The notes beneath the pieces were generated by a model, which did no database searches, was not told the origin of the DNA, and worked only from the letters and a program-made list of their open reading frames with translations. A DNA stretch of 63,937 nucleotides, filler included, from Reclinomonas americana ATCC 50394 (lineage: Eukaryota), in assembly GCA_048213135.1 (NCBI GenBank). It is 15 parts of 15 records of this genome, joined end to end, with 100 filler letters (N's around TTAATTAATTAA, not from the genome) between each part and the next. Parts side by side here need not be neighbours in the genome. Positions count along the whole stretch, not along the records: positions 48,278 to 52,140 come from AFZH01019234.1; 14 more parts are not named here. One strand, written 5' to 3'. The position numbers and the translations under genes were made by a program. Positions 5,499-60,427 of the stretch are shown in pieces; position 1 is the stretch's first letter; every line of letters begins with the position of its first letter.

Positions 5499-5539
<41 letters not shown>

Positions 5540-6969: not shown

Positions 6970-7069
6970 NNNNNNNNNNNNNNNNNNNNNNNNNNNNNNN
7001 NNNNNNNNNNNNNTTAATTAATTAANNNNNNNNNNNNNNNNNNNNNNNNNNNNNNNNNNNNNNNNNNNN

Positions 7070-7923: not shown

Positions 7924-7956
<33 letters not shown>

Positions 7957-9024: not shown

Positions 9025-12000
9025 ACAACCAGTGCACACTTACACACGCGCTGCTGCTGGTGGACAGCGAGCAAGTGAGTGACAAGTTGCGCCGCGTCCC
9101 GCACATCGAATACCGGCGGACTTTGGTGGCGAAATCGGCGGGAATCAACAACAAACACACACAGAAAGAAGAAGAACGCGCTCTCGCACACATGCTCACC
9201 TCCAACTTATTCACACTGGTATGCTCTTTCTCCTCGTCCCCCTCACACACGCTGTTACACTCACTCTCTCTTTGTGTGTGTGTGTGTCAACGCAGAGTTG
9301 GAAACACTCTGTGCACTTTGAGCGCGTGCGACGAGTGGTGTTGCACACAGCTGAGCGCGCACATCGTCTTCAAACACTGTTGGATTCTCTTGTCACACGA
9401 TGCATTCCGTTCAAGCTGCAGGTTCACTCTCTCTCTCACTCTTTCTCTCTCACACTCTCTCACTCTCTCTCTCTCAGGGCGAGGAGAACGCGAATGGTCC
9501 TCTTGCTGTGGATTTGGTCGTGTTTGGTGACTCACTAATGTCGCCGGCGTCGTTGAGAGAGTTGCGATTGTGTGCATTGCATTTTTTGTCAAAAAAGAAC
9601 AAGCTCTCCTCTCTCTTTCTTCTTCTCTCTCTCTCTCACTGTCAGTCAGTCTTTCTTTCTTCTCTTGTCTCTGCATCGAGGAATCGTGTGCCACTCAAAT
9701 GCTGGTTGTCTCTTGCTTGCAGCGCGCTCATTGACACGCTTTCTCTCTCTTCTCTCTTCTCTCTCTCTCTCTCTCGNNNNNNNNNNNNNNNNNNNNNNNN
9801 NNNNNNNNNNNNNNNNNNNNTTAATTAATTAANNNNNNNNNNNNNNNNNNNNNNNNNNNNNNNNNNNNNNNNNNNNGTCACTTGCATGCAGCGCGTGCTC
9901 ATTGACACTCTTCTCTCGCTTTCTCTCTCTCCTCTCGTCTGCCGCCCCTGTCTCTCTCTTTCTTCTTGTCTCTCTCTCTCTCTCACTGTCTTTCTTTCTT
10001 TCTTCTCTTGTCTCTTGCGTTGAGGATGCTCTTGCCACTCAACATGCTGGTTGTCTCTTGCATGCAATGCACTCATTGACTTGCCTCTCCCTCTGCTCTC
10101 GCCTGCCTCATCTGTCTCTCTCTCTCTCTCTCACTCTCTCTCTCTCACACACACACACTGTCTTGCCTCTCTGTCTTTCTTTCTTTCTTCATCTTGTCCC
10201 TTGCGTTGAGGATGCTCTTGCCACTCAACATGCAGGTTGTCTCTTGCATGCAGCGCGCTCATTGACTTGCCCCTCTTCTCTCTCTCTCTCTCTCACACAC
10301 ACACACTGTTAGTCTTTCTCTCTTCCTCTTCTCTCATGCGCTGAGGATGCTCTTGCCACTCAACATGCAGCTTGTCTCTTGCATGCATCGCGCGCTCATT
10401 GACACTCTTTGTCTCTCCTTGTCTGTCCCTTTCTCTCTTCCTCTTGTCTCTTGTGGTGAGGAGACTCTTGCCACTCAAAATGCGTGCAGCGTGCCCCTTC
10501 CGCTCTTTCACTTTTTCTTCTCCTCCCTTCTCCTGCTCATACCTCCCTCTCCTGTAGAGCCCTTGTCGGCGACGTGGACGACCCTGTCATTGTCTTCGAG
10601 ACCGGCGAATGGAGTCCCGCGGCCGACGACACCGAGTCACTCACAGTGCTGTTTCTCGAGTCGCTGCTGGATCTCATTGCCAGGTTCGCCACGTCGTGCC
10701 TCCCTCTCTCTATCTCTCTCCCCGCCCTCACTTTTCTTGCGCCTCGTTTGCAGCGTGTGCAAACGTGTGTACACAACCAACCCGCAACTGGAGGGTTTCT
10801 ACAGCCGCCACGCTGTCACCGGCGCCATGCGGTTCCACTTTCGTGTGCAATTGGTGTCAGCGATGCGCACGACTGAGCAGGTTTGGCGATGCGCCGATGC
10901 GCAAGTCCTCACTTCCGACACTCAAAGCGAAACCGCTGTATCTGCAGCACGCCAATGTCGTCGGCAACGCACCAGTGTACCGCGCTCTGCTGCAGGAGCT
11001 GCAGCTGCGATTGTTGCGTGCGCACGCACGTCCACGAGGACTCGTCCTGTTTCTAAATCACCATCTACCTCCGCAGACCCGCAGCCGTGGCTGGTTTCGA
11101 TGATTCAACGACGGCGGCGACCACCCAGCAGGCTTCCGCTGCGCCTCCTCTACCGTCCTCCGGTGCTTCCGCAGCATCGTCGGCAGTCGTTGTGGCCAAG
11201 AGGAAACGCGAACGCAAGCGAGTGCGCCCACAAGATGATCGCGCAGTCGAGGGCATGCAGCAGGACGGCGAAGAGGCCGCCGTCATGGACATGATTGATG
11301 CGATCAACGGGAGTGTGAATGGAGCGGGGCTGGCGGTTATGCAATCGTGCGTGCATTCCGCACTCCCTCCACATCGACGTGCGCATCTTCTGATATATCT
11401 TTGCATTCACAGCGAATCGTCCATGTCTGTTCCGTCGCCATCGTTGCCGCCACCGCCACCGGTACGCAGCGGNNNNNNNNNNNNNNNNNNNNNNNNNNNN
11501 NNNNNNNNNNNNNNNNTTAATTAATTAANNNNNNNNNNNNNNNNNNNNNNNNNNNNNNNNNNNNNNNNNNNNGCCACCGCCGCCACCTCCGCCACCGCCA
11601 ATCCCAGGTTTTTTCAGCGATGCGTACGGTTTCGCGTCCCCGTCGCAGCCGGCGCCCTTGCCACCACCACCACCCTCTGCCATTCTCGGTTCACCCATGT
11701 TGCCGCCGCCACCACCGCCGCCTCCACCACCACCGGGTTCGTCGTCCTTCTCAGCGCTTCCACTGCCGCCGCCCCCACTTGGCGGTCCAATGCTCCAGCT
11801 ACCGCCTCCGCCGTCACTGTCACCTGCAGCAATGCACATGGCTCCAGCACCGCTTATGACGTCGCCCATTGTGGTTCGACTGCCGCCTGTCAAGCCCTCC
11901 AACGTCAGTGGTCGGCGGCAGAAGCTGTACAGGCCGTCGAAGAAGAGCAGTGCTGTTGCGTCTTCCGTCTTCTCTCATCGCAGTCGATGCGGGGAGATGC

Positions 12001-15000
12001 TTACAGTGTGATGTGCAGGCCACCACGCTGACCAACATGACGCGACATCGTGGAGGTGATTTGATTCTCTCCTCTTCGCTTCTCAATCTCGCGAACAAAC
12101 TCACCCCCTGTTGATGGCAGACGTCGGTGGGTCGGCAGGCCGCCCGATGCTTGTGCAACCGTCGCACGTGCAGATCATGGCCTCTGGTTTGTCTTTACTC
12201 TGTTTTTTTGTTGCCCCTCAGCCTCATTCATCCTCGCTTCCCAATCCCAGCCATTCGTCGAGCCGTGCAAGAGGAAAAGGAGGAGAATAAGCGACTGCTG
12301 CAGTTGCGTTGTGGCAGTGACGTGCTTGCTTCCGCGCTTGAAAGCCTAACCGCCTTCGCTTCATGCAGTCGACTAACCGAGCAGCTGTCGGCTCTGGGTC
12401 TCCGTCGAAGTGTCGCGGAAATGTGTGTGGAATTCATGCTGAGTGGAATGCGAACGGCGACGCAAGATCCGCTCGATCACTGCATTAGTGTGGCAGATGC
12501 GCTGCCGAGCTCCGCCCGTGGCGCTTCGTCGCTTGCCTCATTTTCGATTGCCGCTGACGAGAACATTACGCTGCCACCACCCGCGTCAACGACGACGACG
12601 ACCACAACGACGGCAACGGCGAACAGTGCTTTCACTGATTCCGACGCCGCACAGCAGCGCATCTTGAAGGCGCTGCGGCAAATCAACTTTGCTGTCACTC
12701 GGCGAGTTGACGAAACAGTGGTGGCATCGGTGAGCGTGTCGCGCATGTGTGTGTGCGCACACTTTGTCATGGAATGCCTGACATGCCTGTGCGCTTGTAG
12801 TGTTTTGAAGTGCTGACCGAGGCCTTCAAGTGGCTTGCGGTGTCGGTCGAGGATGCTGTGGTGGCGAGACGGTCGCATTCGGCTGACGGTCCGTCAGCGT
12901 CGTCACTAACTGGTCTCGGCTCGTTGGCCGCCGCCGAACTTCGGCAGCGTGTGGAGTTTGTATTGCACCTGTTGTGCATTCCACCCAGGTGACTCCCTCT
13001 CTTTTCAGGCTTGTTGACTTCAATGTGCGCTCATGGGCATCGCTGTTTTTCCCACGTCGCAGTAAATCGAGCCCGGCTCCGGCGCTCCCGGCAATGTGCG
13101 GTGAGCCGGATATCGGGCGCGATGCGGAGGCGCTCGATCAGCTGGTGTTTAGCGAGTCGGTGGCCAGTCCGTTGTGGGACTCGCAGTTGCGCGTGCGCAG
13201 TGCAGCCTTTCACTGGGGTACGTAGGCTGCGATTTCGCGATGACGTAGATTTACTTGCTGAGATGTCGTCTTGTGCTGTAGGTCCACCACATGCACTTCG
13301 TCGTCGAGTGAGCTGGTGTGTGGACACGTGCGAGGGTGTGCGAGTGATGCGGCGAGCGACGCAGTCGCTTTCGCACGCCGCTCACCTGACGCAGGCCACT
13401 TGCCAGCTGCCAGCCTCCACAATCGCCGGTGAAGTGTCGCTGGGTGGTGAGTTATAATTCTCCTCATCCTTCTTGCTCCTACTGTTGTCCTTGTTGTTGG
13501 TCTTGGTTTTCTTTTTCTTCATCTTCTTGTCTTTTTCTTCTCTCCCCCTCACCTTCTGCGCGTGCGTGTGCCCTTTGCTGTTTATCTTATCCGTGTCGCA
13601 GAGCTTTCGGGCAACGTAAATGCAGCGGCTGTCTCGCTGACGGTGTACGACCTCGCCGACGAGAACATCACTGTGCAAGTCTCCCTCAACGACAACGCCA
13701 TCTCCATGTCGCCGACGTTGCTCGGGTTCTGGGAGAAGTTGGTTTTGGAGCCATTCAACGACGGCAAATCGGTGCGTCAGTCACAGTGTTCTGTCGCATG
13801 CATTGCTTCTCACCCTGCGAGGTGCAGGTATTGTACACGGTGGTGGCGCCCTACACGCCCAGTATCACCACGCTGCTGCGTTCGTTCATGCGCGATGTGA
13901 AGACCGAGTTTGAGGTGTGTCCCGTCCGTGTTCATCGTTGAGAGAGAGAGAGAGAGAGACAGTGTGCTGAAAAGCACCGCAGACACTGCAATTGGGCTCG
14001 CTGCGCCCCCTCGAGATTCCGTGCTTCTGGTCGGGGAACGCGCACCAGCTCGGATCGCCACCTGACAGCATCTACTTGGTCAACACGTCTCCGCCGCCGT
14101 CGCTCTCTGCCGCAAGTACGTCCACAGTCCTAGTAATATAGCGATCCACTGCTAACACGTCGTGGCGCAGATGCTCGAGCGGCCGCCGATGCATGGTTGG
14201 CCGGGTATTGCAGTAAGCTGATGGAGTTCTTCGAGCGTATCAGTTGCGTCGCTTGGCCAACATTTCAAATCTACTGCACACAGCTTCGCTCACTGCGTAT
14301 GTGTGTGTCGGTGAATGTGGCAGAGGAGGATCTCGTGTCGTTTGTGCGGCGCCAGCGAGTGGAGGATTTCATTGGTATCTATGTGGTGGTGCCGTCGTGT
14401 GGTGCTGCCGATTGGGTGCGCGTGCTGCGTACTCTCGCGTCGCTGTGTGCCTCCTGCTGGACTCGTGCGCACCTCGGGGCACGGCTGGTGATCCTGGTGA
14501 GCCTCGGCCTGCCTTTTTTTTCCGTCGATGCATTCCTTCTCACCTCTGCGTTGCCACGCAGCCGATTCCGCTCAACTGGGTCGGCAGTTTTCACGGCCCG
14601 CACCACCGCTCCGTGGCGTTCTCCACTTTCAACAAGTGCCGAGCCGCAATGGCTGCCCATCACATTGCGCTGCACGCACAACAGGGTCGTCCGACTCAGT
14701 CGTACGGAGCCGGTTCGTCGGCCGTGTTGCAGACGACCCCGTCCCCGGTGGCGCCGCTGGGAGTTGCGTGTGCGAATCATGAAGCACGCGCGCACACATG
14801 GCGGTGATTGCTCACACACGCACATGAAAAATGTTTGCCGCACGCAGTTCCGACCCAACAGTCCTTTTTCGCCCATGAATCCCAGTCCGTCGCCGGCGCC
14901 GCACCACGTGAGGGCGCAAGTGGCGGACCGCTCCGTCGCTCGCATTCTCAATCCACTGGGGTACCTGGGAGGTTGGTGCTTGGTGGTGGCAGCAGAGAGA

Positions 15001-16128
15001 TTGCGCATCACCTTTCTCATAACTTGCGTTTGCGCAGCCGAGGCCATTTACTTTGTGCGCGAAGTGGAAATGCGCACACCGCTAATTCCACCCGGCTTTC
15101 CGCGCCCGCCACCGCACTCGGCGCACCCGGGCCACCTGTTGTACGAGCCAGCGGTGGTGCTGCAGGGTGGATCACTGGCAGCGCACTGCCAGGCGCTGCG
15201 AGATGCCAGCGGGTATGTGACTGTGGTGCTGATTTTCATTCTCCACTATTTTTGTTGTTGTTCACGTCTCCTGTTGTGCGCCATACAGCATCAGAGAAGA
15301 GGAAGTGGCTCGAATGTTGCAACCGGATCGTGTGCTCCACGTATGCTACGGTCCGTGCGCGTCCAAGGGCAGCGCTCCCCGGCGGTGGATGTGTGTGGTG
15401 ACAGATCACGAGGGCATCCTGCTGGACAGATTCATGTCGTACTTTTGGTACGGCAATGAGCACCTCACTGACGCACTGTCACGCATGCTTACCCCTCTCT
15501 GTTCTTCGCACAGTGATGTAGCCTGGTTGTGGAGTTGCATATCGTCGGTGCTTCCACAACAGCCGTGTGCTTGGGGTCTGGTGATTGCCAAGTTCGATGA
15601 TGCCATGACGGAGGCCGAGTACCACGGTTTGTGTCATTCATTGCACCAACCATGTCTTGCCATTGAGGCTGCTAATCACGATGATGCAGACTGGTGCACG
15701 TGCTTGGAGATGGTGTCGCTGCAGCCGCTGTCGCTGTCGGCAGAGCGCGACACGCCGTCGAGTCCGCGCAGTCCGCGCGGTTGGAGCGATCCGCGCCCGA
15801 GTACACTGGTATGCGGATCACCTCCCTTTTTGCGGTGTTGTAGTATTATCCGTAGCGTGACCGCTTGTGTTGCGCGCAGGGAACGGCTGCGCTGCAATGG
15901 GCTGTTATTGCCTCGCTGCACCCGACGTCGAATCTCTCGCTGTCGTTCCAAACACCAAAGACATCATCGTCAGCAATGCCTCCGGTCGAAGAAATGGAAG
16001 AGGGCGAAGAGGATCCGCGCTCTCCGACTGCCTTGTCGACGACGTCGTCTGGCACCGCCTCCAAAGGTTTTGTCGCGACGAGTCGGAGACTTCCGACCCC
16101 CGCACTTCCTCACTCACCAGTGCCACAC
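9025..16128 (+). CDS. MED13: Mediator kinase-module subunit Med13 (multi-exon, spans two spacers, both ends incomplete)
   Basis: Spliced exons contain the Med13 MID-domain motif ISMSPTLLGFWEKLVLEPFNDGKSVLYTVVAP...FMRDVKTEFETLQLGSLRP. They also contain the Med13_C motifs LLYEPAVVL, VLHVCYG...RWMCVVTDHEGILLD and LWSCI...AWGLVIAKF, plus a proline-rich linker at 11.4-11.9 kb. Confidence 0.85.
9660..10495 (+). repeat. Intronic tandem repeat (about 6 units of a 60-nt core plus CT microsatellite) in Med13
   Basis: Core GAGGATGCTCTTGCCACTCAACATGC.GGTTGTCTCTTGCATGCAGCGCGCTCATTGAC recurs near 9678, 9877 (partial), 10022, 10208, 10343 and 10458. Confidence 0.85.
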
Positions 16129-16354
16129 NNNNNNNNNNNNNNNNNNNNNNNNNNNNNNNNNNNNNNNNNNNNTTAATTAATTAANNNNNNNNNNNNNNNN
16201 NNNNNNNNNNNNNNNNNNNNNNNNNNNNTAGAGAGGAAACAGTGCGAAAGTCAGCTTCCCAAGAAATCAGTAATACTCGGTTTGTTGCGACCGCAAAAAA
16301 AACACTTACTCGGCCGGGAACATCACCACCATCCCCCCACTATCGCACACCCGG

Positions 16355-19300
16355 TTACATGGAGAAAGAGGAGGACGACGAGGAGATCGACACCGATGAA
16401 GAGGCCGCCGGCTCAGTGGGCACACTAAGCGCGATCTCCTCGAACAGTCTGCGAATGTCTTCGTGCGCCGTCGGTTGCGTGAAATGCGCCGAGTGTGCCA
16501 CACACGTCTCGCGTACGTGCGTGAGGAATGCGTCGAGTTCGCGCACCTCGGTCTCGGCCTTGCCCAGGTTGCGTGTGAGGATGCGGATCTGGGAGCGGAA
16601 CACAGGGAGTGAGGAACAGGAGGTCATCATAATTGTTGTTACACAGCACATGAGGGAAACCTTCTTCTCGCCGTGCTCCTTGTATTGCGTGGCCCACTTG
16701 CGCAGCGCCTCGATCTCGTCCTTCAGCTGCTGAATGGTCTTTTCATGGGCATTCAGCTTGATTGTGAGAGCCGACACCTGCAGTACAACGCATGAGACGT
16801 CAGCAGGTTGCACCAGGAGATTGCACTTACTGTCGAATGCACACAAACCTCGCGGTCAGCCGCCAGCTTCTCCTGCTGCAGTTGTGCAAACTCGGCCTGC
16901 GGAGACGACTCCTTCTTGCAGGTCATTACCAAGATATCCATCTCCAACACCAGTTCCTCCTGCGCATGGATGGGCGTGAGTCCATACGCATGCTCGCGCG
17001 TGAAGAGAAGCACGCTCGCAAGTCTCTCACCTTTTCGTTCTTGGCAATCTCCAGCTCGGTCTCCAACTCGGTGATGCGATCCTCGAGCTCCTTGGCGCGC
17101 TTGATGGCCGACTCGCGCGCTGCATTGAGCTCCTTGTGAGCGTCCATCAGCTGCCGTCCGACCTCCTTGGATTGTGTCTCCTGCGCGGAATAAGAATCGT
17201 GAGAAATATGTATGAATACGTCAGGGAGCAGACGTATGCGTGGCCAACCATTTCTGCCGCCTGGCGCTGCGCCTCGGTCTTTTGCTTGATGGCGTCCGCT
17301 TGTGCCTGGCGCATCTTGCTAATCTCCTCGGCCGCCTTCTTCAGCGACTTTTGCCGATCTGCCATCAACGACTGCATCTCCGACAACAGGGCCTCTTCGC
17401 GGCTCTTCACCTGTGTTTCCGCAAAGCACGCAGTGTCAGCAAATATGCGTGTCGTGCTTGTCTTTCAGTCTGCGCGACTGACCTCCTGCAACTGCTTCTG
17501 CATTGCCTCCAATTCAGCGTCATGCGCCACTGCAACCGTGCGTGATTGCGCTTCGACAGCCTCACGGAACTGCCATCACAGAGAGAGAGACAACTCAGAA
17601 TCCGATCGGCAATTGTCAAGCATTGGCATGCTCGCGACTCACCGAGACCGCCGCCCGTTCCAGCACTTCGACATTCAGCAGCACCTCCTGTCGGCTAGCC
17701 TCCACTGCGCGCAGTTGCTCCGACAGCTCGGCGTTGTCTCGAGTGTACTGTTCGATCTGCGCCTTTTGCTCCACGACACGCGATCTCAACTCGTCCGTCT
17801 CCTGACGCAGCTGCGTCTCGGCGGCCGACAATTCAGCCGAAGATCTTTGCAGCAGCGCTTGAGCCTCAGTGAGCCGGTGCACAGTGGCGTCGGCGGCATC
17901 GGCACGCGCGGCGGCCTCCTTCAGTTGCGACTCCAGCGCACACACTCGCTCGTCGGTGTCCTGCGTCGACTTGGCAAGCTCGACCTGAGCCTCGGTCAGC
18001 TGCTGCTGCAGTGCGTCACGTGCTCCGCTGGCCACCGCCAGTTGCTGCTCGATGATCTGCTGCCGGTCTTCCTTTTCTTCGAGGAGGATCTGTGTGGCAG
18101 GACAAGAAGCAAGCAACTCAGTCAGTCAGCTTTGCCGAATTTCATGTCGTGAGTAAAACAGGCAGCTTCTCACCTCGAGTTCATCGCGACGCTGCGTGGC
18201 GGCCAGCAACGAGGCCGTCTTCTCGCGAATGGTGGCATACAGAGTCTCTACCGTGGTGGTTGATTCGTCGAGCTGCGTTGTCAGCGTGTGCACACGCTCG
18301 CGCAGGCTGCCAACCTCCTCTTGCAGGCTCGTGTTGTTGAGCATCAGCGTGTCCATCTCCTGCTCCACTCCCTGGCATTGCAAAATAGCACAGCGTTAGT
18401 TTGATACAGGGAAAGGATTACCATGATTGTCGCGCACCTCCTTCTCGCGCAGCGTCTTCTCCAGTGCACTCTGATGCTCCGACTTGGACTCGATGGTCTC
18501 CTGTGCTCGGCTCAGTCGCTCCTGCAGCGCCTCGACCTGCTGCTCCGCCGCACTGGCGGTTCGGCGAGCATGCTCGACAGCCTTCTCCGACTGCGCAAGC
18601 AGAGTCAGGAACAACGGTCAGCAGCGCAATACGCACACTCCGCACTGGCGCACCTCTTGGATTGTGGCTTCGTGCTTGCACAACAGCGTCTGCACCTCGA
18701 CATAGCGCGACTCCAGATCCAACAACTCCTCGACCTTCTTCTGCAGCACAGTCGTCAGTCCGTCGTACTGCTCTTGTTGCTCTTGCAGCTTGGCAGCGCT
18801 GTGTGTGATGCACAAAATACAGTGAGTCACCATGATGCACGATGCACGAGTATATATGTACACGCAACAGCTCGGACACGCCGGCCTCGGAAGACACCAT
18901 GCGAGTGCGTTCGGTACGAATTTGCATCTGCAAGTCCGACACTTGCATCTGTGCGCTCTCGAACGACACTTGCAGCTCCTGCACACACACACCATCAGTA
19001 TCGTAGTGCACGCAGCATCTGACGCCTCATATTATCGCACCTTGTAGGCTCTCTTGAGGAGAGCATTCCGCTCCTGCATGGTGCTGTTGTTGGCGCGCAA
19101 TGTGCTGTTCTCCTCCTCGGACGACAGCAAGCGCCTGTCGGCAATCGCCAGCGACTCATTGGTGAACTCCTGCAGCGCCATCAAGCGCTGCTCGGCCACC
19201 ACTTGACGGCAGATGCTGCTTGCTGCAGCGTCAGCCAAGTCGGTACGGGTGGCAAACAGCTCTTGTTCCAGAGCCACGCGCTCGGCCTGTGATTTGAAAC

Positions 19301-49409: not shown

Positions 49410-51639
49410 GTTCTTCGACATTACGGTGAGTGCAGTGTGAGGGAGGGAGGGACTGGGAAAGGAGAAGGAGGAGGGGGAAAGAGAGAGAGGGAAAAGGAGA
49501 AATGAATGAGACAGCAATTCCGTTGGACAATGCATCATGTGAGAGAGAAGAATAGGAAGAACAGCACAGCGCATGGGGCTGCAAGCGTGTGCGTGTGTGT
49601 GAGAGAGAACGACTCAATCGGCGACATCGCCTGCAGACACAAAGTTTTACATGAGTGCAAAACGGAGAGAAAAGGTACACACAGAAGTGCAGCGCAGACT
49701 TTGAAGTTCATCTGTGTGGAAGGTCTTGAAGTTAGAGGGATGAAGTCGTTTTTGTGTTTGTTTGAAAGACGGAGAGACCCAAAAAGCACACGGATGAAGG
49801 AGAAGAGACAGCAGAGAGCGCATGGGCAAGAGAGGAGACGAAAAGCCAGCGACCACGTGCTGCAGCGCATTCACTCTATTCCTCCTCTCCAGATTGGCGG
49901 CAAGAAGGCCGGCCGTGTTGTGTTCGAGCTGTTCGGTGAGTGTCTTGCTTCTCGATGCTTCTCGTTGGACGAGATCCTCATTCTTCATCGCAGCCGACGT
50001 CGTCCCGAGGGTACGTGTGCAATCCCATGACTCTTCTGATTGAGCTCCATCGTGCTCACGTCGCACTGTAATTGCTCTTGCCGATGATTCCCTTCATCCC
50101 ACAGACTGGTGAGTTGCATTTGCTCGACCCTTCCCCTTGCCTCCCACCGCGCTAACTGTTGTGCTCTGCGCGCAGCCGAGAACTTCCGCGCTCTGTGCAC
50201 GGGCGAGAAGGGCACGGGAGCGTGAGTTGTCTTTGCATGTCATCTATGGGCCCTCATTGTGGTAGCTCATGATTGTGTGTGTGTGTGTGCAGGAGCGGCA
50301 AGTCGCTGCAGTGCGTTCGCCTGTCGAGTTCTGCATGAACTGCTGATATCTGTCTCACATTTGTTGCAATCGCGTGTGTTCCTGGCGATCAGCTACAAGG
50401 GCAGCAAGGTTTGTGTGTGCGAGAAGGAGAGAGAGAGAGAGAGAGAGAGAGAGGAGGAGAGAGAGAAGTAGGAGGGAAGAGGGAAGAGAGACAGAGTGAA
50501 TGAGGAAGAGCACACACACATGCACGCAGAGAGGGAGAGAGGGGGGGCACAATGAGAAATTGTGTGTTTGTGCACACCTCTCTCCCTCACTCAAAGATGA
50601 GAAGACGACTCGGTTTCTTTCTCGCCATCTGCTGTCATTTTCTTGTCCCTTGCTCTTTTTCTTCTCGTGCCTCACTCTTCTAGTTTTTGTTCTCCGCTTT
50701 CCCCCTTCTGTCGCTCCCTGTTCTCCTCGCCTTTTGGTCTCGTGTTTGCTCTCCTTTGCATGTTACCGAGTCTCGTTTTCTTGTTTTTCTCTCTTCCTCC
50801 TTCTTCATCCTCTTCTCCCTCCGTCGCTCCCTCTTCTCCTCGCCGTCTGTGCGCTCCTTCGCATGTTCCCGAGTCTCGTTTTCTTGTTTCCCTTCTCTCT
50901 TCTCCATCCTCTTCTCCCCTTCCATCACGCCGTCTACTCCTCGCTGTCTTGGTCTTCTGTTTGCTCTCTTTCCTTCTCCTCTCTTCCTGCCCGTTCCCCT
51001 TCCATTCCCTCTCTAACGTGTTCCGTTGTCACAGTTCCACCGCATCATCCCGAGCTTCATGTGCGTAATACCCGCTGTATCTTCAACTGTTTTACGCAGA
51101 TACTCACCTCTTTGTGTGCACAATGCAGGTGCCAGGGAGTTTCGTTACCCACCCCTCCCATTCTCGCTCGTGTGCATTGCTCACCACCTCGTCTCGTCTG
51201 CATCACCTTATGTATTGACAACAGGGGTAAGTCTTGTTGCTGTGCCGCGATTCTGCGTCTGCGTTGCTGATTGTTGCATTCTCTTGCACAGCGATTTCAC
51301 CCGTGGGTTCGTTGACTGTTTGTGTCCGAATGCTTCCAGAGTCTCACCATCTTGTGTATCTTTACCCCCATCGCCAACAGAGACGGCCGCGGGTGAGTTT
51401 TTCCACACCTGTCTTGCGATCACCATCATTCTCACTCACTCTGCGACGCGCACAGCGGCGAGAGCATCTACGGCCGCAAGTTCGTTGCGTACCTGTCAAG
51501 ATGTGCCGTTGACGTCGCACTCTGCTCACCGCCCTGCAGGACGACGAGAACTTCAACCTGAAGCACACCCGCCCGTACCTGCTGTCGATGGCTAACGCCG
51601 GCCCCAACACCAACGGCTCTCAGTTCTTCATCACCACCG
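49410..51639 (+). CDS. Cyclophilin (peptidyl-prolyl isomerase), divergent-loop type; 14 visible exons, ends incomplete
   Basis: Exons: 49410-25, 49893-935, 49994-50010, 50105-08, 50176-221, 50293-310, 50393-408, 51035-60, 51129-38, 51225-26, 51292-306, 51381-92, 51456-83, 51540-639. They splice to [117 protein letters not shown]. Confidence 0.95.
50105..50108 (+). other. 4-nt micro-exon (ACTG)
   Basis: Context cacag|ACTG|gtgagt. Supplies the T and the first base of the A in the conserved PRTAENF. Confidence 0.9.
51225..51226 (+). other. 2-nt micro-exon (GG)
   Basis: Context aacag|GG|gtaagt. Needed to build the second Gly of QGGDF and to keep the frame. Confidence 0.85.
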
Positions 51640-52012
51640 GTGAGTGCGATAGAAAGGGAAAGGAAAGCATGGAAGGAATGGTGCCTCTCACTTGTGTTTC
51701 TCTTTCCATGACACTCCTTATCGATGATTTGTCTCTCTGCTTGCCTCTTCATGTCTTCATTCTTCGCTCCATTCCATGATTGAGTTCCCGAATCCGTTTT
51801 CCATGTTGTCACGAATTCACTCTTTCTGTCTCGTTGCTTCCTTCCCGCAACCCCTCTTTGTCTCTTTTCCAGTCTCTCCGCCTCTGTGTCTCGATCCCTC
51901 GCCCTCTCCTCATTCAACACTTCTCCTGTTTACCTTCTCATGTTTGTTCTGCACTGGGAGCTACTCTGGGTGATGTGATCCTCTCTTGGTTGCTCTCGCT
52001 CTCTCTCTTTTA

Positions 52013-52051
<39 letters not shown>

Positions 52052-52995
52052 AAGAGAAAGCAGGAGAGACAAGAAGGAGATGTGCTCTCACTTAGTTTAT
52101 TCCAATCCCTGTCCCCCTTTCTTCCCCGTCCTCCTTTCCTNNNNNNNNNNNNNNNNNNNNNNNNNNNNNNNNNNNNNNNNNNNNTTAATTAATTAANNNN
52201 NNNNNNNNNNNNNNNNNNNNNNNNNNNNNNNNNNNNNNNNGCAGAGAAACGGACGCGGAGAACCAACGCACACTTATTGCTCTTTGCACCCGTCGACAGA
52301 GAGGGAGAGAGAGAGACTGAACGCAGTGTACAAGATGCACGCTCTCGTGATCCCGAAAGACGGAGAGGAGAGAATGCTAGTACAAATGGAGGACAGAAAG
52401 AAAACACCGCCGTCCACAGTTCGAGAGCAGACACCAGGAATACACGCATTCTTCAACACCAAGAAAGAAAGAGAGGAACGGAGTGCATGTTGAAGATCAA
52501 GAATGCCGTTCCCACAAAGAATGAAAGACGAAAGTCGGAACACACCAGACATGCCCGTATTTAACAGCTCCCAGAAAAGAAGCGAGATGGCGTGCATTAG
52601 GAAGAGCACGAATGCCATACCCACAAAGAATGGAGGAAAGCTGGAAAGGCAGAAATGCACGCATCCTAAGGGAATGACAGAGGAAGGGACTCCATGTTGA
52701 AGGCGTGAGAGCAATGGACACAAATGGGCGTCCACCAAGAGAGTGTGAGAGAGAGAGAGAGCACTCCAAGCGCAAACGAGCATAAAATGCGCAAGTTACG
52801 CGCAGCAACACAAACACTGATGCAACAAGAGTGAAACCGGCGAATGCGCAGAATGCCAAATTGCGACGCGCATGACGCACACAAACATGCAAAACAGGAG
52901 ACAGTCAATAACACAGACTCTTTCTCCGTCCACCCTCCCGTCCCCACTTTGCCCTTGTCCTCCCTTCCCCTTTTCTCTCCCCTCCTCCCACTCAC

Positions 52996-53685
52996 CGCAA
53001 TCACCACATCCTTCGAGGTGGCGCCATTGCGCGAGCCCACGGCCTCAATCGCACGCACAACGTCCATGCCCTCAGTCACGGAGCCGAACACGACGTGCTT
53101 GCCATCTGCGCCAGGGGGAAGTCAATCACAGCTGTCGACTGAGAGAACGCGCGCACTACCGCCACGAACCGAGCCACTCAGTCTTGGACTGTAGATTGGC
53201 AAGAGAGGGGTGAGTGAGAGTGAGGGAGCACAAACTGGCGACGCAAGTGGCAAAACGCAACGGTGCACAGGAAGAACTGCGAGCCGTTGGTGTTCGGGCC
53301 GGCGTTGGCCATCGACAGGATTCCCGGGCCGGTGTGCTTCAGGGTGAAGTTCTCTGTGGGAGGGTTGGACAATGATGAGCGAGGGACAGGATGAAGAGGG
53401 ATGAAACGGCAGGGGAAAAGATCGGGATACGGTGAAGACGGTTGAAACAGACGAATGTACACAGATGATAAAAGAGACAGCAACAAGGCAAATGACAGAA
53501 GTCGGATGAGACGACAAAAGGGAAACACACAGGGATAAATGGGGAAGGCAGATCTGACGCAAAGACAAACGGAGACAAAGAAGCGCAGTGTGACTGGGAC
53601 AAGAGATAAGAGCGACGGAACGCATGCACCCGCAAGGGAACAAGAAGGGGTCAACGAGGAAAAATTCAACACGAAGTGAGAGAGA

Positions 53686-53733
<48 letters not shown>

Positions 53734-54972
53734 GACGAAACGAAAGAACAAGAAAGGAAGTACGACACAAGCAAAGAGTCGAGATGAGCGAGAAATTACA
53801 GCGAGACAGACGGCAAGCAGCAACAGGCGTGCAGCAGCAGTCAAAACACAATACACACGCACAATTCCAGTGAGAGAAGAAGAGTAGAGAGAGAGAGAGA
53901 GAGAGGAAGACAGAAAATCACATATGATCAAACAGCAGGAGGGCAAAAAACACGTATAGCGGAACGACAGATGTAGGGCTTCGACAAAGGATACTGAAAC
54001 GCAGATATAGAACGACTGAACACGCGATGGGAGGCATTACAAGGCAGCAAACGAAACGAGGAATCAAGAGGCGTGCAACGCCAGTTGAAAACGATACACA
54101 AGCACCATGGCAGTGTGCACAGAGAGAGAGAGAGAGAGTAGAGAGCAAATGCAGCCTCTCTCACTCTCCCTTGCCTTCCCCTTGTCCTCTCCCTCCCCTT
54201 CCTCTCCCTTCCCTTTCCCACCCCCTTTCCCCTTGTCGACTCACCATCGGCGAACTTCCTGTCGCCCGCAACGCAAAACCGCACGACAGTGAGCACATCA
54301 AACTCCCTCAATTCAACACACACGACTGCAGCGCTTACGAAGCTCGCCGTAGATGCTGTATGCACACACACGAAAGTCAGCGACTGCGCATCATCGCCCA
54401 AAATTATCAAGCGACACCAACCTCTTGCCACCAGTGCCGTTGCCGCGGGTGAAGTCGCCCTGATACAAAAAACAGAGATGATCAGTCACTCGCCATCCCT
54501 CCACTCGCACATGACAGTAAAGACTCACGCCCTGGCACATGAAGTCCGGAATAACGCGGTGGAACTGCATGACCACGAAAAGTCAGCCACCCGAGTCTCT
54601 CTCTTCCCTCTCAAAGAAGCGAACCTTGCTGCCCTTGAATCCAAAGCCCTTCTCGCCCGTGCACAGCGCGCGGAAGTTCTCAGCTATCACACAAGTGAGT
54701 CAACCAACATGCAAAGATTCTCCCGCCCAACGAATTTGAGCTCACCCGTCTGCCACGACACAGTGAGTCAGGGCGCATGACGACGAGGAGACAAGCAACA
54801 GTCGAACAACACACACACCTTCGGGCACACGTCGCCTGCCACCCGACAAAAAAGCGCAAGTGAGAAGAGGAGATGTGCGCATACTTTCGCGCCAAAATGT
54901 GCGATTCACTCACCGCGCAGCTCCATGACAATGCGGCCGGCAGCCTTGCCGCCAATGGTCATGTCAAAGTAC
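52996..54972 (-). CDS. PPIA: Cyclophilin A-like peptidyl-prolyl isomerase; 11 visible exons, first and last exons not seen
   Basis: Exons: 54914-72, 54819-35, 54746-49, 54625-83, 54529-64, 54422-59, 54344-55, 54245-58, 53262-353, 53170-88, 52996-53105. They splice to [153 protein letters not shown]. Confidence 0.95.
54746..54749 (-). other. 4-nt micro-exon (ACGG)
   Basis: Context ggcag|ACGG|gtgagc on the minus strand. Same position as the 4-nt exon of the other cyclophilin. Confidence 0.9.
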
Positions 54973-55793: not shown

Positions 55794-56867
55794 ATGGCCT
55801 TCCGCTGCTCCCACACTCTCTCCTACGGTGACAACGTCCCAGTCTGTGCCGTCACCACCACCCCCGACGGTCAGCACATTGTGAGCGGTGATGAAGACGG
55901 AACAGTGCACTTGTGGTCACTGGCGAGTGGAAAGCAAGAAGTGCAGCAGTTCGACGGCCACATGTCTTCTGTGTGGTGCGTCGCCGTCACGCCCGACGGT
56001 CAGCGCATCGTGAGCGGCGGTGCTGATCACACAGTGCGCGTGTGGTCGCTGGCGAGTGGCGAGGAGGTGCTTCAGTTGGAGGGACACACAGACTGGGTGC
56101 TGTCAGTCGCGGTCTCTATGGATAACCAGTTTGCGGTGAGCTGTGGTCACGATTGCACAGTGCGCGTGTGGTCGCTGGCGAGTGGCAAAGAAGTGCGACA
56201 GTTGGTGGGGCACTCGGACTCGGTGCAGACGGTCGCCATTACTCCCGATAGTCAGCTCGTTGTGAGTGGCGGTTGTGATAACACGGTTCGTGTGTGGTCG
56301 CTGGTGAGTGGAAAAGAGGTGCGACGAACGCAGGGGCGCACGTCGTTCATGTTGTCGGCCGCCGTTTCTCCCGACGGTCTGTTCATGGTGACCGGGTGTG
56401 AGGACACGACGGTGCGAGTGTGGTCGCTGGCAAGTGCGGAGGAGGTGCGTCGGTTGGTCGGGCACGAGCATGTCGTAAACTGTGTCGCCGTCACTTCCAA
56501 CAGTCAGCACGTCGTCAGTGGGAGTGAAGACGCGACTGTGCGGGTGTGGTCGCTGGCGAGTGGCGAGGAGGTACAGCGGTTGAAGAGGCACACGGCAAAG
56601 GTGTGGTGTGTTGCCACTACTTCCGATGGCCAGAACATTGTTAGTGCGAGTGAGGATGGTACAGTGCGAGTGTGGTCGACGCCGCACGGTCTTGCTCGGC
56701 AAGAGTTGGAGGTGGCGCGCTTGGCCATGTGCGCGGTGCAAGAGGTGCAAGAGCGGGAAGAGATGGATTCTCGGTGTTTGCCGGAGCTGGTGTTGCGATG
56801 TTTCATTGTCGAGGAGGCCGAGGTCGTGGTGCACCGGTGCTTCTGCAATCCCCGCCTTTCTCTCTGA
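55794..56867 (+). CDS. Intronless 7-repeat WD40 protein with conserved C-terminal tail (copy 1)
   Basis: MAFRCSHTL... followed by seven GH..V..VA.TPDG..VSG..D.TVRVW repeats and the tail GLARQELEVARLAMCAVQEVQ...DSRCLPELVLRCFIVEEAEVVVHRCF. Confidence 0.93.
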   Translation: MAFRCSHTLSYGDNVPVCAVTTTPDGQHIVSGDEDGTVHLWSLASGKQEVQQFDGHMSSVWCVAVTPDGQRIVSGGADHTVRVWSLASGEEVLQLEGHTDWVLSVAVSMDNQFAVSCGHDCTVRVWSLASGKEVRQLVGHSDSVQTVAITPDSQLVVSGGCDNTVRVWSLVSGKEVRRTQGRTSFMLSAAVSPDGLFMVTGCEDTTVRVWSLASAEEVRRLVGHEHVVNCVAVTSNSQHVVSGSEDATVRVWSLASGEEVQRLKRHTAKVWCVATTSDGQNIVSASEDGTVRVWSTPHGLARQELEVARLAMCAVQEVQEREEMDSRCLPELVLRCFIVEEAEVVVHRCFCNPRLSL

Positions 56868-57219: not shown

Positions 57220-57450
57220 CGAATGAAGGCAACTCACCCCACTTCCAGATCGCCGATCGCGAGTCGCTCGCTCACTTGGATCCAGCGGCGATGCAGCAGC
57301 ATCAACGTCGATGCCTGACAGAAAGAGACATGCAGTGGCAACATGTCCTCGTCGAAAACACCTTGAGACTCGCAAGCACGACGTAGCAAGAAGAGGACGT
57401 CTCCGTCAGAGGACGAGCTCGGAGGTTTGACGGAATTCTGTCCTCTCCAC
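57220..57450 (+). repeat. Duplicated intergenic segment of the WD40 array (paralogous to about 58720-58925)
   Basis: Shared CGAATGAAG.CAACTCACCCCACTTCCAGAT...GACAGAAAGAGACATGCAGTGGCAACATGTCCTCGTCGAAAACACCTT...GAATTCTGTCCTCTC. Confidence 0.9.
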
Positions 57451-57453
57451 AAT

Positions 57454-57492
<39 letters not shown>

Positions 57493-57577
57493 ACAGCAAC
57501 AACATCGACCCGTCTGCTCTCCCTTCTCCTCTCCTCCTCTCCTCCCTCTCCCCCCCTTCTCCCTTCCACCCTTCCCT

Positions 57578-58663
57578 ATGTCCTTCCGCTGCTCCCGCAC
57601 TCTCCCGCACGTCGACAACGTCCTGGTCGATGCTCTCGCCATCACACCCGACAGTCAGCACATTGTGAGCGGTCAACGAGACGGAACATTGCGTTTGTGG
57701 TCACTCGCAACTGGGAAGCAAGTGCGACACTACGACGGGCACACGTACGCTGTGAACTGCGTCGCCGTCACTCCCGACGGCCGGCACATTGTGAGCGGCG
57801 GTGACGATTGCGCAGTGCGAGTGTGGTCGGTGGTGAGTGGCGAGAAGGTGTATGAGATGGAGGGACACGAGGATTCGGTGTTGTGTGTGGCGATCACTCC
57901 CGACGGTCGGCTAGTTGTGAGTGGGAGTGAGGACTGCACAGTGTGCGTGTGGTCGCTGGCGAGTGGGGAACAAGTGCGGCAGTGGAAGGCACATGATGGT
58001 TTCACGCGGTCTGTCGCCATTACTCCCGACAGTCATCTCCTTGTGAGCGGCGGTACTGATAACATTGTGCGTGTCTGGTCGCTGGCGAGTGGCGAGCAAG
58101 TGCGACAGTTAAAGGGGCAGACAGGCTGGGTGGCGGCTGTGGCTGTTACTCCCGATGGTCAGCACGTTGTGAGTGGAAGTGATGACTGCACCGTGCGAGT
58201 GTGGTCTCTGGCGACTGGGGAAGAACTGAGACTGTTTGGGGGGTACATCGGGGAAGTGATGTCCATCGTCGTCACCCCCGATGGCCAACACATTGTGACT
58301 GACTGCGACGACACGACAGTGCGTGTGTGGTCGCTGGTGAGCGGCAAAGAAACACAACGGTTGCAGGGACACGCTGAGGAGGTGTGCTCTGTGGCCGTCG
58401 CCTCCGATGGCCAGCACATCATGTGCGGGGATGGCGATGGCATAGTGCGCGTGTGGTCGACGCCGTGTGGTCTTGCTCGACTGGAGATGGAGGTGGCGCG
58501 CTTGGCGATGCGTGCAGTGCAAGAGATGCAGCGGGTAGGGGCAGCAACGGAGGAGGAGGTGGATTCTCGGTGTTTGCCGGAGATGGTGCTGCGCTGCTTT
58601 ATCGTGGAGGAGGCCGCAGTCGTGGTGCACCGGTGTTTCCGCGATTCTCACCTTTGTTTCTGA
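57578..58663 (+). CDS. Intronless 7-repeat WD40 protein with conserved C-terminal tail (copy 2)
   Basis: 361-aa ORF, MSFRCSRTL..., with seven WD40 repeats and the tail ...DSRCLPEMVLRCFIVEEAAVVVHRCF. Confidence 0.93.
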   Translation: MSFRCSRTLPHVDNVLVDALAITPDSQHIVSGQRDGTLRLWSLATGKQVRHYDGHTYAVNCVAVTPDGRHIVSGGDDCAVRVWSVVSGEKVYEMEGHEDSVLCVAITPDGRLVVSGSEDCTVCVWSLASGEQVRQWKAHDGFTRSVAITPDSHLLVSGGTDNIVRVWSLASGEQVRQLKGQTGWVAAVAVTPDGQHVVSGSDDCTVRVWSLATGEELRLFGGYIGEVMSIVVTPDGQHIVTDCDDTTVRVWSLVSGKETQRLQGHAEEVCSVAVASDGQHIMCGDGDGIVRVWSTPCGLARLEMEVARLAMRAVQEMQRVGAATEEEVDSRCLPEMVLRCFIVEEAAVVVHRCFRDSHLCF

Positions 58664-59079
58664 GCGGTGGACATGCAGATGGCAAGAGGCACCGGCTTTG
58701 TTGAATGGCTTTTTGCGATCGAATGAAGACAACTCACCCCACTTCCAGATACCCGAGTCGCTCGCTTACTTGAATCCAGCAGCATCAACGTCGACGCCTG
58801 ACAGAAAGAGACATGCAGTGGCAACATGTCCTCGTCGAAAACACCTTTGACTCGCAAGCGCGACGTAGAACGAAGAGGACATCTCCGTCAGAGGAGGACT
58901 GACAGAATTCTGTCCTCTCACAAAGCACACGCACACACAGAAGCAACAGCAACAGCATCACCCTCTGTTCTCCTTTCTCCTCTCCCCTGTCATCCCTCTC
59001 CTTCTCCTCCCTCCCTGCTCCTCTCCTCCTCTCTCCCTGTCTCTCACACTTCTCCTTCCCTTCCCTCTCTTCTCTCCCT

Positions 59080-59691
59080 ATGGCCTTCCGCTGCTCCCGC
59101 ACTCTCCCGCACGGCAACAAAAACGCAATCCTCGCTGTCGCCACCACTCCCGACGGTCAGCACATTGTGAGCGGCGACGGAGACGGAGCAGTGCACTTGT
59201 GGTCGCTGGCGAGTGGGCAAGAAGTGCGACTGTACAAGGGCCACACTTCCTCTGTGTGGTGTGTCGCCGTCACGCCCGACGGCCGGCACATTGTGAGCGG
59301 TGGTGACGATCGCACAGTGCGCGTGTGGTCGATGGTGAGTGGCGAAGAAGAGCATCGAATGGAGGGACACACTGAACAGGTGTTGTCTGTCGCGGTCTCT
59401 GCGGATAACCAGTACGCAGTGAGCGGGGGAACCGATGGCACAGTGTACGTGTGGTCTCTGGCGAGTGGCGAGCAAGTGCACCGACTGGAGGGACACGCTG
59501 GCGGCGTGCCTTCTGTTGCCGTCACTCCCGACAGCCAACTCATTGTGAGTGGAGGTCGGGACGCAACAGTGCGTGTCTGGTCACTGGCGAGTGGCGAGCA
59601 AGTGACGCAATTGGAGGGACACACAGAATGGATGACTGCAGTGGCGGTCACCCCCGATGGACAGTTCATTGTCAGTGCGAGTTACGACGAG
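59080..59691 (+). CDS. Intronless WD40 protein, 5' part (copy 3, cut by gap)
   Basis: MAFRCSRTL... followed by four complete repeats and part of a fifth. Confidence 0.9.
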
Positions 59692-59791: not shown

Positions 59792-60427
59792 GCCGTTGCC
59801 ACTCTCGACAGCCGACACGTGGTGAGCGGCAGCGACGATCGCACTGTGCGGGTGTGGTCGCTCGCGAGTGGCGAGGAGGTGCGATGCATGGTGGGTCACA
59901 CCGGCAACGTGGTCTCTGTCGCCGTCACCGCAGATGGTCGACACGTGCTGAGTGGGAGTACCGACCGTACTTTGCGCGTGTGGTCATTGGAGAGCGGGGA
60001 AGAGGTGCAACGGCTGCAGGGACACTCTGGCGTGGTCATGTCGGTGGCCGTCACTCCCGACGGTCGTCACTTTGTGAGTGGCAGTTACGATAACTCAGTG
60101 CAAGTGTGGTCTGCGTCGAGTGGCGAGATGGTGCGTCGACTGGAGGGCCACGATCTGTGGGTGTGGTCAGTGGCTGTGGCTCCGGGTGGCCAGCATATTG
60201 TTAGCGCGAGTGGTGATTGGACGGTGCGCGTGTGGTCGACGCCGTGCGGCCTCGCTCGACAGGAGATGGATGCTGCGCGGTCGGCCATGCGGGCGGTGCA
60301 GGAGATGCAGGAAAAAGGGGAAGGAGATTCACGGTGCCTGCCGGAGATGGTGTTGCGGTGCTTCATGGTGGAGGAAGCGGAGGTCGTGGTGCGTCGTTGT
60401 CTCAGCGATCCCCAGCTGTATCTGTGA
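59792..60427 (+). CDS. Intronless WD40 protein, 3' part (end of copy 3 or a fourth copy)
   Basis: One partial and three complete repeats, then the tail ...DSRCLPEMVLRCFMVEEAEVVVRRCL. A degenerate duplicate of the tail follows at about 60440-60505. Confidence 0.9.
   Translation, partial: AVATLDSRHVVSGSDDRTVRVWSLASGEEVRCMVGHTGNVVSVAVTADGRHVLSGSTDRTLRVWSLESGEEVQRLQGHSGVVMSVAVTPDGRHFVSGSYDNSVQVWSASSGEMVRRLEGHDLWVWSVAVAPGGQHIVSASGDWTVRVWSTPCGLARQEMDAARSAMRAVQEMQEKGEGDSRCLPEMVLRCFMVEEAEVVVRRCLSDPQLYL

What the first reader, a model, noticed from the sequence alone, without database searches (positions are those of the whole stretch)
51129..51306. Frame-required 2-nt micro-exon inside the cyclophilin QGGDF motif
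Seen: the conserved MCQGGDF is split as G TGC CAG GGA | GG | C GAT TTC. The GG (51225-51226) has its own acceptor (caacag) and a strong donor (gtaagt), flanked by introns of 86 and 65 nt. Skipping it causes a frameshift, and I find no other GT/AG choice that restores the motif. Known: exons of 3 nt or less are rare and are missed by gene finders. Inference: this lineage splices ultra-short constitutive exons routinely, probably by intron definition or ordered/recursive splicing.
Basis: partly seen in the sequence, partly recalled or inferred. Interest (0 to 1): 0.78.

Follow-up and report, generated by a model that had tools for sequence, protein, structure and literature searches.

The report
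Two-base coding exon in cyclophilin gene
A cyclophilin gene in an unidentified, intron-rich eukaryote most likely carries a two-base exon that completes its catalytic motif; such tiny exons are already documented in plants and fungi, and no RNA data were available to confirm this one.

Summary
GG at 51225-51226 lies between a good acceptor (acag) and a consensus donor (gtaagt), flanked by introns of 86 and 65 nt. Of all one- and two-intron GT/GC-AG combinations between 51129 and 51306, only this one restores the QGGDF motif.

One correction: a single-intron choice (donor gttacc at 51144) also keeps the frame. It gives QGVSDF, with one extra residue.

Support for a real micro-exon:
- Chance of such a site pair in an intron-like 153-mer is about 0.002.
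- Both flanking introns fall in the gene's usual 56-94 nt class.
- The upstream intron sits at the same place as the only intron in that motif in a paralog on the next contig.
- Both paralogs share a 4-nt exon.

Limits:
- No RNA run was listed.
- No close relative was found.
- The gene is truncated on a 3.9-kb contig.
- A phosphatase gene in the window has only normal exons.

Exons of 1-3 nt are already documented with transcripts in plants and in Coprinopsis, which has 57 exons of 2 nt. This is a likely new member of a known kind. Confidence is about 0.75 and interest is moderate.

The parts
48994..51639 (+). Gene 1: cyclophilin A-type gene, 15 modelled exons and 14 introns. The C-terminal third is missing because the contig ends at 52140.
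   Evidence: Pfam PF00160 on exon 51540-51641, E 9.2e-09. PDB cyclophilin A hits, E about 1e-13. Spliced alignment to three homologs. The deduced 123 residues are 77-80% identical to the best database cyclophilins.
51035..51060 (+). 26-nt exon (FHRIIPSF plus two bases of the Met codon), donor gtgcgt.
51129..51138 (+). 10-nt exon: last base of the Met codon, then Cys, Gln and the first Gly of the motif. Weak donor gtttcg at 51139.
   Evidence: Donor score 1.6 bits.
51139..51224 (+). Intron A, 86 nt, phase 0 between the two Gly codons. Acceptor ...gacaacag.
   Evidence: Acceptor score 6.7 bits, top 6% of 384 AG sites. Same position and phase as the paralog's intron.
51144..51145 (+). Alternative GT donor (gttacc). 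Joined to the acceptor at 51291 it keeps the frame but gives QGVSDF.
   Evidence: Donor score -0.7 bits.
51225..51226 (+). The 2-nt exon GG: first two bases of the second Gly codon.
   Evidence: Only splice combination that restores QGGDF. Chosen by the spliced alignment with all three references at intron penalties 8 and 10.
51227..51291 (+). Intron B, 65 nt, phase 2, donor gtaagt, acceptor ...ttgcacag. Specific to gene 1.
   Evidence: Donor 6.3 bits, top 7% of 511 GT sites. Acceptor 5.6 bits. Absent from the paralog.
51292..51306 (+). 15-nt exon: last base of the Gly codon, then Asp-Phe-Thr-Arg and two bases of the next Gly codon.
50105..50108 (+). 4-nt exon ACTG in gene 1: Thr codon plus the first base of the Ala codon in the conserved TAENF stretch.
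   Evidence: The same exon is present in the paralog.
54746..54749 (-). 4-nt exon ACGG in gene 2 (the paralog), at the same codon position.
   Evidence: In the alignment of the two regions, the block cag-ACnG-gtgag is conserved while the surrounding introns are not.
54460..54528 (-). Gene 2's single 69-nt intron within the motif, phase 0 between the two Gly codons. Counterpart of intron A.
52996..54971 (-). Gene 2: paralogous cyclophilin on the neighbouring contig, 11 modelled exons.
   Evidence: 78% residue identity to gene 1 over 110 codons, dN/dS 0.41.

Best explanation
GG at 51225-51226 is a genuine constitutive 2-nt coding exon of a cyclophilin A-type gene. The pre-mRNA loses two ordinary short GT-AG introns, of 86 and 65 nt. 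The two retained bases complete the second glycine codon of the catalytic QGGDF motif.

The acceptor AG of intron A lies inside the stretch that U1 must pair with at the donor of intron B. The two introns therefore cannot be recognised at the same time and must be removed one after the other, by intron definition. The consensus donor gtaagt gives the micro-exon its identity. This mechanism is inferred; it is not shown here.

Intron A is old, since it is shared with the paralog. Intron B arose 2 nt downstream of it in gene 1 only, or was lost from gene 2.
For: 1. The GG exon is the unique solution restoring QGGDF among all one- and two-intron GT/GC-AG combinations.
2. 108 of 120 database cyclophilins carry the five-residue Q-x-G-D-x motif without insertion, 100 of them as QGGDF.
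3. The micro-exon's own sites are strong: acceptor 6.7 bits (top 6% of 384 AG), donor 6.3 bits (top 7% of 511 GT).
4. Chance of such a pair in a 153-nt intron-like sequence is 0.00195, and 5e-6 with GG.
5. Introns of 86 and 65 nt fit the short class that holds 20 of 24 introns in the two paralogs (56-94 nt). A merged intron of 148-153 nt would fall in the empty range 95-398 nt.
6. Intron A has the same position and phase as the paralog's only intron in the motif.
7. A 4-nt exon is shared by both paralogs. In each it is the only solution that restores the conserved TAENF stretch, and it is embedded in otherwise unalignable introns.
8. Only a G-run of exactly four bases (51224-51227) keeps the frame, which argues against a homopolymer-length error.
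9. There is precedent elsewhere: 1-nt exons validated in plants with GTRAGT donors (PMC8831610, PMC4674806; passages read), and 57 exons of 2 nt in Coprinopsis from long reads (PMC12230235; passage read).
Against: - No transcript evidence could be obtained.
- The upstream donor gtttcg is weak: 1.6 bits. Five of the 26 modelled donors score 2.1 bits or less.
- An in-frame canonical alternative exists: donor at 51144, product QGVSDF.
- The alignment program's preference depends on the intron penalty. The micro-exon path wins at 8 and 10 and loses at 15.
- The same program invents exons of 4 nt or less in 8 of 80 unrelated metagenomic cyclophilin loci.
- The paralog lacks intron B, and no orthologous locus was found, so there is no conservation test.
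- The gene is truncated on a small unplaced contig of a fragmented draft assembly.
Confidence: 0.75

Rival explanations
1. A single 148-nt intron (51144-51291) is removed using the donor gttacc. The protein then carries QGVSDF in place of QGGDF, either as the main product or as a sizeable alternative isoform.
For: It is canonical GT-AG and in frame, and needs one intron fewer. The spliced alignment prefers it at an intron penalty of 15.
Against: - The donor scores -0.7 bits, about the median of all GT dinucleotides.
- The product puts an extra residue into a motif that has no insertion in any of the 108 homologs in which it was found.
- A 148-nt intron lies outside both length classes seen in the 24 introns.
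- It leaves the strong juxtaposed acceptor and donor around GG unexplained.
Confidence: 0.08
2. This copy is a frameshifted pseudogene, or the contig carries an assembly or indel error in the motif region. The acag-GG-gtaagt arrangement is then a coincidence.
For: The contig is 3.9 kb, unplaced and truncated, in an assembly of many small contigs. No RNA holder was listed and no identical protein was seen among the database hits. A paralog with an uninterrupted second Gly codon exists.
Against: - The coincidence has probability about 0.002, or 5e-6 with the correct dinucleotide.
- All 13 other junctions of the gene keep the frame and the conserved residues.
- dN/dS against the paralog is 0.41.
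- GC3 of 0.89 is retained.
Confidence: 0.1
3. One non-canonical intron (51140-51290, with TT...CA ends) is removed. This also yields QGGDF.
For: It is the only single-intron excision that gives the exact motif, as follows directly from the sequence.
Against: None of the 24 modelled introns has non-canonical ends other than one GC-AG. The 151-nt length is atypical. It ignores the strong internal sites.
Confidence: 0.02

Closest known systems
Ultra-short constitutive coding micro-exons of plants: 1-15 nt, including the 1-nt exons of APC11 and VPS55
   Same: - Not a multiple of three, and needed to keep the frame of a conserved protein.
- Flanked by ordinary GT-AG introns.
- Strong GTRAGT donor directly after the micro-exon.
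- Missed by gene finders.
- The proposed mechanism is intron definition with one-after-the-other removal (PMC8831610 and PMC4674806, passages read).
   Different: The plant cases are backed by RNA-seq, RT-PCR and conservation across land plants. Here there is no transcript and no ortholog. The organism is an unidentified eukaryote with 56-94 nt introns.
Exons of 3 nt or less in the long-read annotation of the mushroom Coprinopsis cinerea
   Same: - A genome with short introns.
- 2-nt exons are the commonest class among exons of 3 nt or less: 57 exons in 50 genes, against 13 of 1 nt and 27 of 3 nt.
- Omitting them breaks the gene model (PMC12230235, passage read).
   Different: Those exons are supported by full-length transcripts. 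Whether the present organism is related to fungi is unknown. The supplementary figures of that paper were not seen.
Zero-nucleotide recursive splice sites (ratchet points) of Drosophila and vertebrate long introns
   Same: An acceptor is followed almost at once by a consensus donor, and removal must be stepwise. This is cited as a model in PMC4674806 (passage read); the primary papers are recalled, not read.
   Different: Two bases lie between AG and GT and stay in the mRNA. The introns are 86 and 65 nt, not tens of kilobases. Nothing here subdivides a long intron.
1-nt exon in Fusarium CYP621A P450 genes
   Same: A micro-exon inferred mainly from the need to assemble a conserved protein (PMC12940212, search listing and start of abstract only).
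   Different: Different gene family and lineage, and 1 nt rather than 2 nt.

Membership tests
Cyclophilin-type peptidyl-prolyl isomerase (Pfam PF00160) | Significant match to the family profile | tested here: met
   Exon 51540-51641: E 9.2e-09, 36.2 bits against a cut-off of 21.7. PDB cyclophilin A hits, E about 1e-13.
Cyclophilin-type peptidyl-prolyl isomerase (Pfam PF00160) | Intact five-residue Q-G-G-D-F active-site motif | tested here: met
   Met only if the 2-nt exon is included. 108 of 120 homologs carry the five-residue motif. Of the 12 without it, two were inspected and are N-terminally truncated; ten short fragments were not inspected.
Cyclophilin-type peptidyl-prolyl isomerase (Pfam PF00160) | Complete domain of about 160 residues | tested here: inconclusive
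   Only 123 residues can be modelled. The last exon ends in a donor at 51640, and no further coding exon was found before the contig ends at 52140.
Constitutive coding micro-exon of 3 nt or less | Canonical acceptor and donor directly flanking it, each belonging to an intron long enough to be spliced | tested here: met
   acag before and gtaagt after. Introns of 86 and 65 nt lie within the 56-94 nt class.
Constitutive coding micro-exon of 3 nt or less | Required for the reading frame and the conserved residues | tested here: met
   The caveat is that a one-intron alternative keeps the frame but not the motif.
Constitutive coding micro-exon of 3 nt or less | Present in mature mRNA | not testable with these tools
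Constitutive coding micro-exon of 3 nt or less | Conserved in orthologs | tested here: inconclusive
   A pattern for this architecture gave 0 hits in metagenome contigs and 0 in prokaryote genome contigs. The 80 related metagenomic loci reach at most 85% identity, and in none of the 18 examined does an intron fall there. The in-window paralog lacks intron B.
Zero-nucleotide recursive splice site | AG and GT directly juxtaposed, with nothing retained in the mRNA | tested here: not met
   Two bases separate them, and they must be retained for the frame.
Introner-type (transposon-derived, multi-copy) introns | Near-identical copies of the intron elsewhere in the genome | tested here: not met
   Introns A and B have no match elsewhere in the window at E up to 0.05. 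Only 64 kb could be searched, so power is low.

The most novel reading that the evidence does not exclude
Gene 1 records an exceptional, lineage-specific accumulation of introns: 14 introns in 370 nt of coding sequence, one per 26 nt. At least six positions are absent from its paralog. New introns landed within a few bases of old ones and so created exons of 2-18 nt. This would mean that the spliceosome of this organism has effectively no lower limit on exon size, and that it relies on a strict order of intron removal.
Probability: 0.3. Interest if true: 0.6.

Novelty: new member of a known kind. Interest (0 to 1): 0.4.

Why it matters
If real, the site shows that an essential active-site codon can depend on a two-base exon. 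Any annotation of this genome made without micro-exon-aware methods would then yield a frameshifted or motif-broken cyclophilin. The gene would also make a compact natural substrate for studying the order of intron removal around exons too small for exon definition: exons of 10, 2, 15 and 12 nt in a row, separated by introns of 63-86 nt. The phenomenon itself is already documented with transcripts in plants and fungi, so the gain is incremental.

Tried and rejected
**Genome and RNA data**
- Whole genome: none is held for this window.
- Earlier scan notes: nothing for this genome or sequence. One unrelated Naegleria 6-nt exon note came up.

**Database protein identical to gene 1**
- The best hits to the 100-nt exon reach 97% identity, and none is identical. 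The database therefore gives no transcript-derived copy.

**Taxonomic placement**
- The WD40 ORF search gave at most 55% identity and no informative names.
- The Atlas look-up gave no taxon.
- No Rfam family and no tRNA in the window.
- The organism remains unidentified.

**Relatives with the same architecture**
- The pattern scan gave 0 hits in metagenome contigs and 0 in prokaryote genome contigs.
- The protein-based locus search returned 80 loci, none close.

**Other micro-exon evidence in the window**
- Pfam scan of 150 of the 488 ORFs of at least 60 residues that passed a low-complexity filter, covering 1-18149: 0 hits. The other 338 ORFs were not scanned.
- The word search with the phosphatase exon found nothing. 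The representative search gave homologs, and with them the phosphatase gene showed no credible micro-exon.
- Window-wide excess of juxtaposed strong sites: 41 observed against about 34 expected, not detectable.

**Mechanism and origin**
- Introner hypothesis: no similarity of introns A or B to other window sequence.
- RNA structure around the micro-exon: z-score 0.30, nothing special.
- A rule that the donor upstream of a micro-exon is always weaker than its own donor: true for GG (1.6 against 6.4 bits) but not for the two 4-nt exons. Rejected as a general pattern.

**Literature**
- Search for '2-nt exon' phrasings: 5 papers, 4 listed, none about natural 2-nt exons.
- The search combining micro-exon terms with alveolate names was not specific.

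Full report
**What the window is.** The 63937 bases are 15 short contigs of 1.6-13.7 kb, joined by linkers of N runs around a TTAATTAATTAA spacer. No whole genome is held. The finding lies on a 3863-base contig, 48278-52140. The DNA is eukaryotic, about 54% G+C and rich in CT/GA microsatellites. I could not identify the organism.

**The observation.**
- A 10-nt exon, 51129-51138, carries the last base of a Met codon, then Cys, Gln and the first Gly. It is followed by gtttcg.
- An 86-nt intron ends in acag at 51224.
- GG sits at 51225-51226 and is followed by gtaagt.
- A 65-nt intron ends in cacag at 51291.
- A 15-nt exon, 51292-51306, starts with the last base of the Gly codon and continues Asp-Phe-Thr-Arg.

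I enumerated all 29 GT/GC donors and 5 AG acceptors in 51129-51306. Among all one- and two-intron combinations, with introns of at least 20 nt, exactly one restores QGGDF: the 2-nt exon.

The donor gttacc at 51144, joined directly to the acceptor at 51291, is also in frame. It gives QGVSDF, one residue longer.

**The gene.**
- The largest exon (51540-51639, 100 nt) matches Pfam PF00160 at E 9.2e-09 and solved cyclophilin A structures at E about 1e-13.
- I wrote a spliced-alignment program that allows exons of any length. With three database cyclophilins as references (P0036, P0056, P0040) it gave the same model each time for the conserved core from 49410 onward (the three differ only in the first, start-codon exon and past 51639). 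That model has the GG exon, a 4-nt exon ACTG at 50105-50108, and exons of 10-46 nt around them.
- With an 18-nt exon (50293-50310) that supplies a six-residue loop insertion, the model has 15 exons and 14 introns in 370 nt of coding sequence.
- It encodes 123 residues that are 77-80% identical to the best database cyclophilins over their full length.
- The C-terminal third is missing. The last exon ends in a donor, and no further coding exon precedes the contig end.

**A paralog as an internal control.** The next contig (52241-55113, minus strand) holds a second cyclophilin gene with 11 modelled exons. It is 78% identical to gene 1 over 110 codons, with dN 0.16, dS 0.39 and dN/dS 0.41. Two things follow.
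- The paralog has a single 69-nt intron in the motif, at phase 0 between the two Gly codons. This is exactly where intron A sits in gene 1. Intron A is therefore older than the duplication. Intron B is specific to gene 1.
- Both paralogs have a 4-nt exon (ACTG and ACGG) at the same codon position, supplying Thr and the first base of Ala in the conserved TAENF stretch. In each gene it is the only splice combination that restores that stretch. The block cag-ACnG-gtgag is conserved inside introns that otherwise do not align.

So this organism has kept at least one exon of 4 nt through a gene duplication.

**Splice-site and length statistics.**
- Of the 24 modelled introns of the two genes, 23 are GT-AG and one is GC-AG, and 23 end in CAG.
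- Twenty are 56-94 nt, and the other four are 399-891 nt. None lies between 95 and 398 nt.
- Introns A and B fit the short class. A merged intron of 148-153 nt would fit neither class.

I built position weight matrices from the other sites (24 donors and 22 acceptors).

| Site | Score (bits) | Rank |
|---|---|---|
| Acceptor before GG | 6.7 | top 6% of 384 AG sites |
| Donor after GG | 6.3 | top 7% of 511 GT sites |
| Downstream acceptor | 5.6 | — |
| Upstream donor gtttcg | 1.6 | — |
| Rival donor gttacc | -0.7 | — |

- The upstream donor is weak. Five of the 26 modelled donors score 2.1 bits or less.
- Only three AG dinucleotides occur between 51160 and 51300.
- In 200000 simulated intron-like 153-mers, an equally good AG-nn-GT pair with at least 50 nt on each side occurred at frequency 0.00195. 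With GG it occurred once.
- The G-run at 51224-51227 keeps the frame only if it is exactly four bases long.

**Conservation of the motif.** Of 120 database cyclophilins, 108 carry the five-residue Q-x-G-D-x motif, 100 of them as QGGDF, and none has an inserted residue. The 12 without it are 75-168 residues long. Two were inspected and are N-terminally truncated; ten short fragments were not inspected. The QGVSDF alternative would therefore break a pattern without exception in this sample.

**Cautions.**
- My aligner is not proof by itself. Its preference for the micro-exon holds at intron penalties 8 and 10 but flips to the rival donor at 15.
- On 80 unrelated metagenomic cyclophilin loci it produced exons of 4 nt or less in 8 loci, all in poorly aligned genes.
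- No RNA run was listed. No database protein identical to gene 1 was seen.
- No locus with the same architecture was found in metagenome or prokaryote contig collections.
- The 80 related loci reach at most 85% identity, and none of the 18 examined has an intron at this place.
- A tyrosine-phosphatase gene in the window has ordinary exons of about 77-149 nt and no credible micro-exon.
- A window-wide count of juxtaposed strong acceptor/donor pairs (41) does not exceed expectation (about 34).
- 'Routine' use of ultra-short exons is thus shown only for the two cyclophilin genes, where 15 of 26 exons are 19 nt or shorter.

**Mechanism (inferred).** The AG of intron A occupies positions -4 and -3 of the donor of intron B. 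The acceptor and the donor therefore cannot both be bound at once, and the two introns must be removed in sequence by intron definition.
- If B goes first, GG becomes the start of a 17-nt exon.
- If A goes first, GG becomes the end of a 12-nt exon with a consensus donor.

The sequence does not decide the order. The contrast between a weak upstream donor and a strong own donor holds for GG but not for the two 4-nt exons. No unusual RNA structure is predicted. This is the model proposed for the Arabidopsis 1-nt exon, with the potato invertase 9-nt exon as precedent for removing the downstream intron first (PMC4674806, discussion passages read).

**Comparison with what is known.**
- Exons of 1-15 nt are documented in ten plant species. 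About half are not multiples of three, 1-nt exons have been validated, and GTRAGT donors are conserved (PMC8831610, passages read).
- In Coprinopsis cinerea, long-read annotation lists 13 exons of 1 nt, 57 of 2 nt and 27 of 3 nt (PMC12230235, passage read).
- A 1-nt exon is reported for Fusarium P450 genes (PMC12940212, listing only).
- My phrase search for natural '2-nt exons' found no dedicated paper.

The present case is a probable new member of this known kind. It is not a zero-nucleotide recursive site, because two bases are retained. I found no sign that introns A or B belong to a multi-copy introner family within the window.

**Verdict.**
- The micro-exon reading is the best explanation, at about 0.75.
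- The lineage-wide inference is only partly supported.
- Novelty is modest.

The more unusual feature is the intron density of gene 1, one intron per 26 coding bases. It suggests repeated intron gain next to existing introns. That remains a hypothesis.

Noticed in passing
whole window; linkers such as 52141-52240: The window is 15 small contigs joined by linkers of 44 N, TTAATTAATTAA and 44 N. Neighbouring genes are therefore not necessarily neighbours in the genome.
   Followed up: yes
50293-50310 (+): An 18-nt exon with its own good splice sites encodes exactly the six-residue loop insertion that gene 1 has and gene 2 lacks. Skipping it keeps the frame, so it could be alternative.
   Followed up: partly
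54259-54343 (-): Gene 2 has one GC-AG intron (donor gcttcg), the only non-GT donor among 24 introns. A gtaagc lies 5 nt downstream but would break the frame.
   Followed up: partly
48994-51639 (+): Gene 1 has 14 introns in 370 nt of coding sequence, one per 26 nt. Gene 2 has 10 in 459 nt. At least six intron positions of gene 1 are absent from gene 2.
   Followed up: partly
50011-50016 (+) and 54813-54818 (-): In both paralogs a GT lies 4 nt downstream of the donor that precedes the 4-nt exon. Using it and skipping the micro-exon would keep frame and length but replace the conserved Thr-Ala. This is probably a by-product of the GTnnGT donor consensus.
   Followed up: partly
55794-56864, 57431-58663, 58903-59691, 59792-60427 (+): There are four paralogous WD40-repeat ORFs without introns. 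In the three whose 3' end lies within a contig, the ORF ends in a similar non-WD40 tail. The best database identity is 55%.
   Followed up: partly
45023-47390 (-): A tyrosine-phosphatase-domain gene has ordinary exons of about 77-149 nt and introns of about 50-590 nt. A word-based search with its 48-residue exon found nothing.
   Followed up: partly
1-18149: None of the 150 ORFs of at least 60 residues scanned here (after a low-complexity filter) has a Pfam match at E up to 1e-4. Long low-complexity CT/GA-derived ORFs dominate.
   Followed up: no
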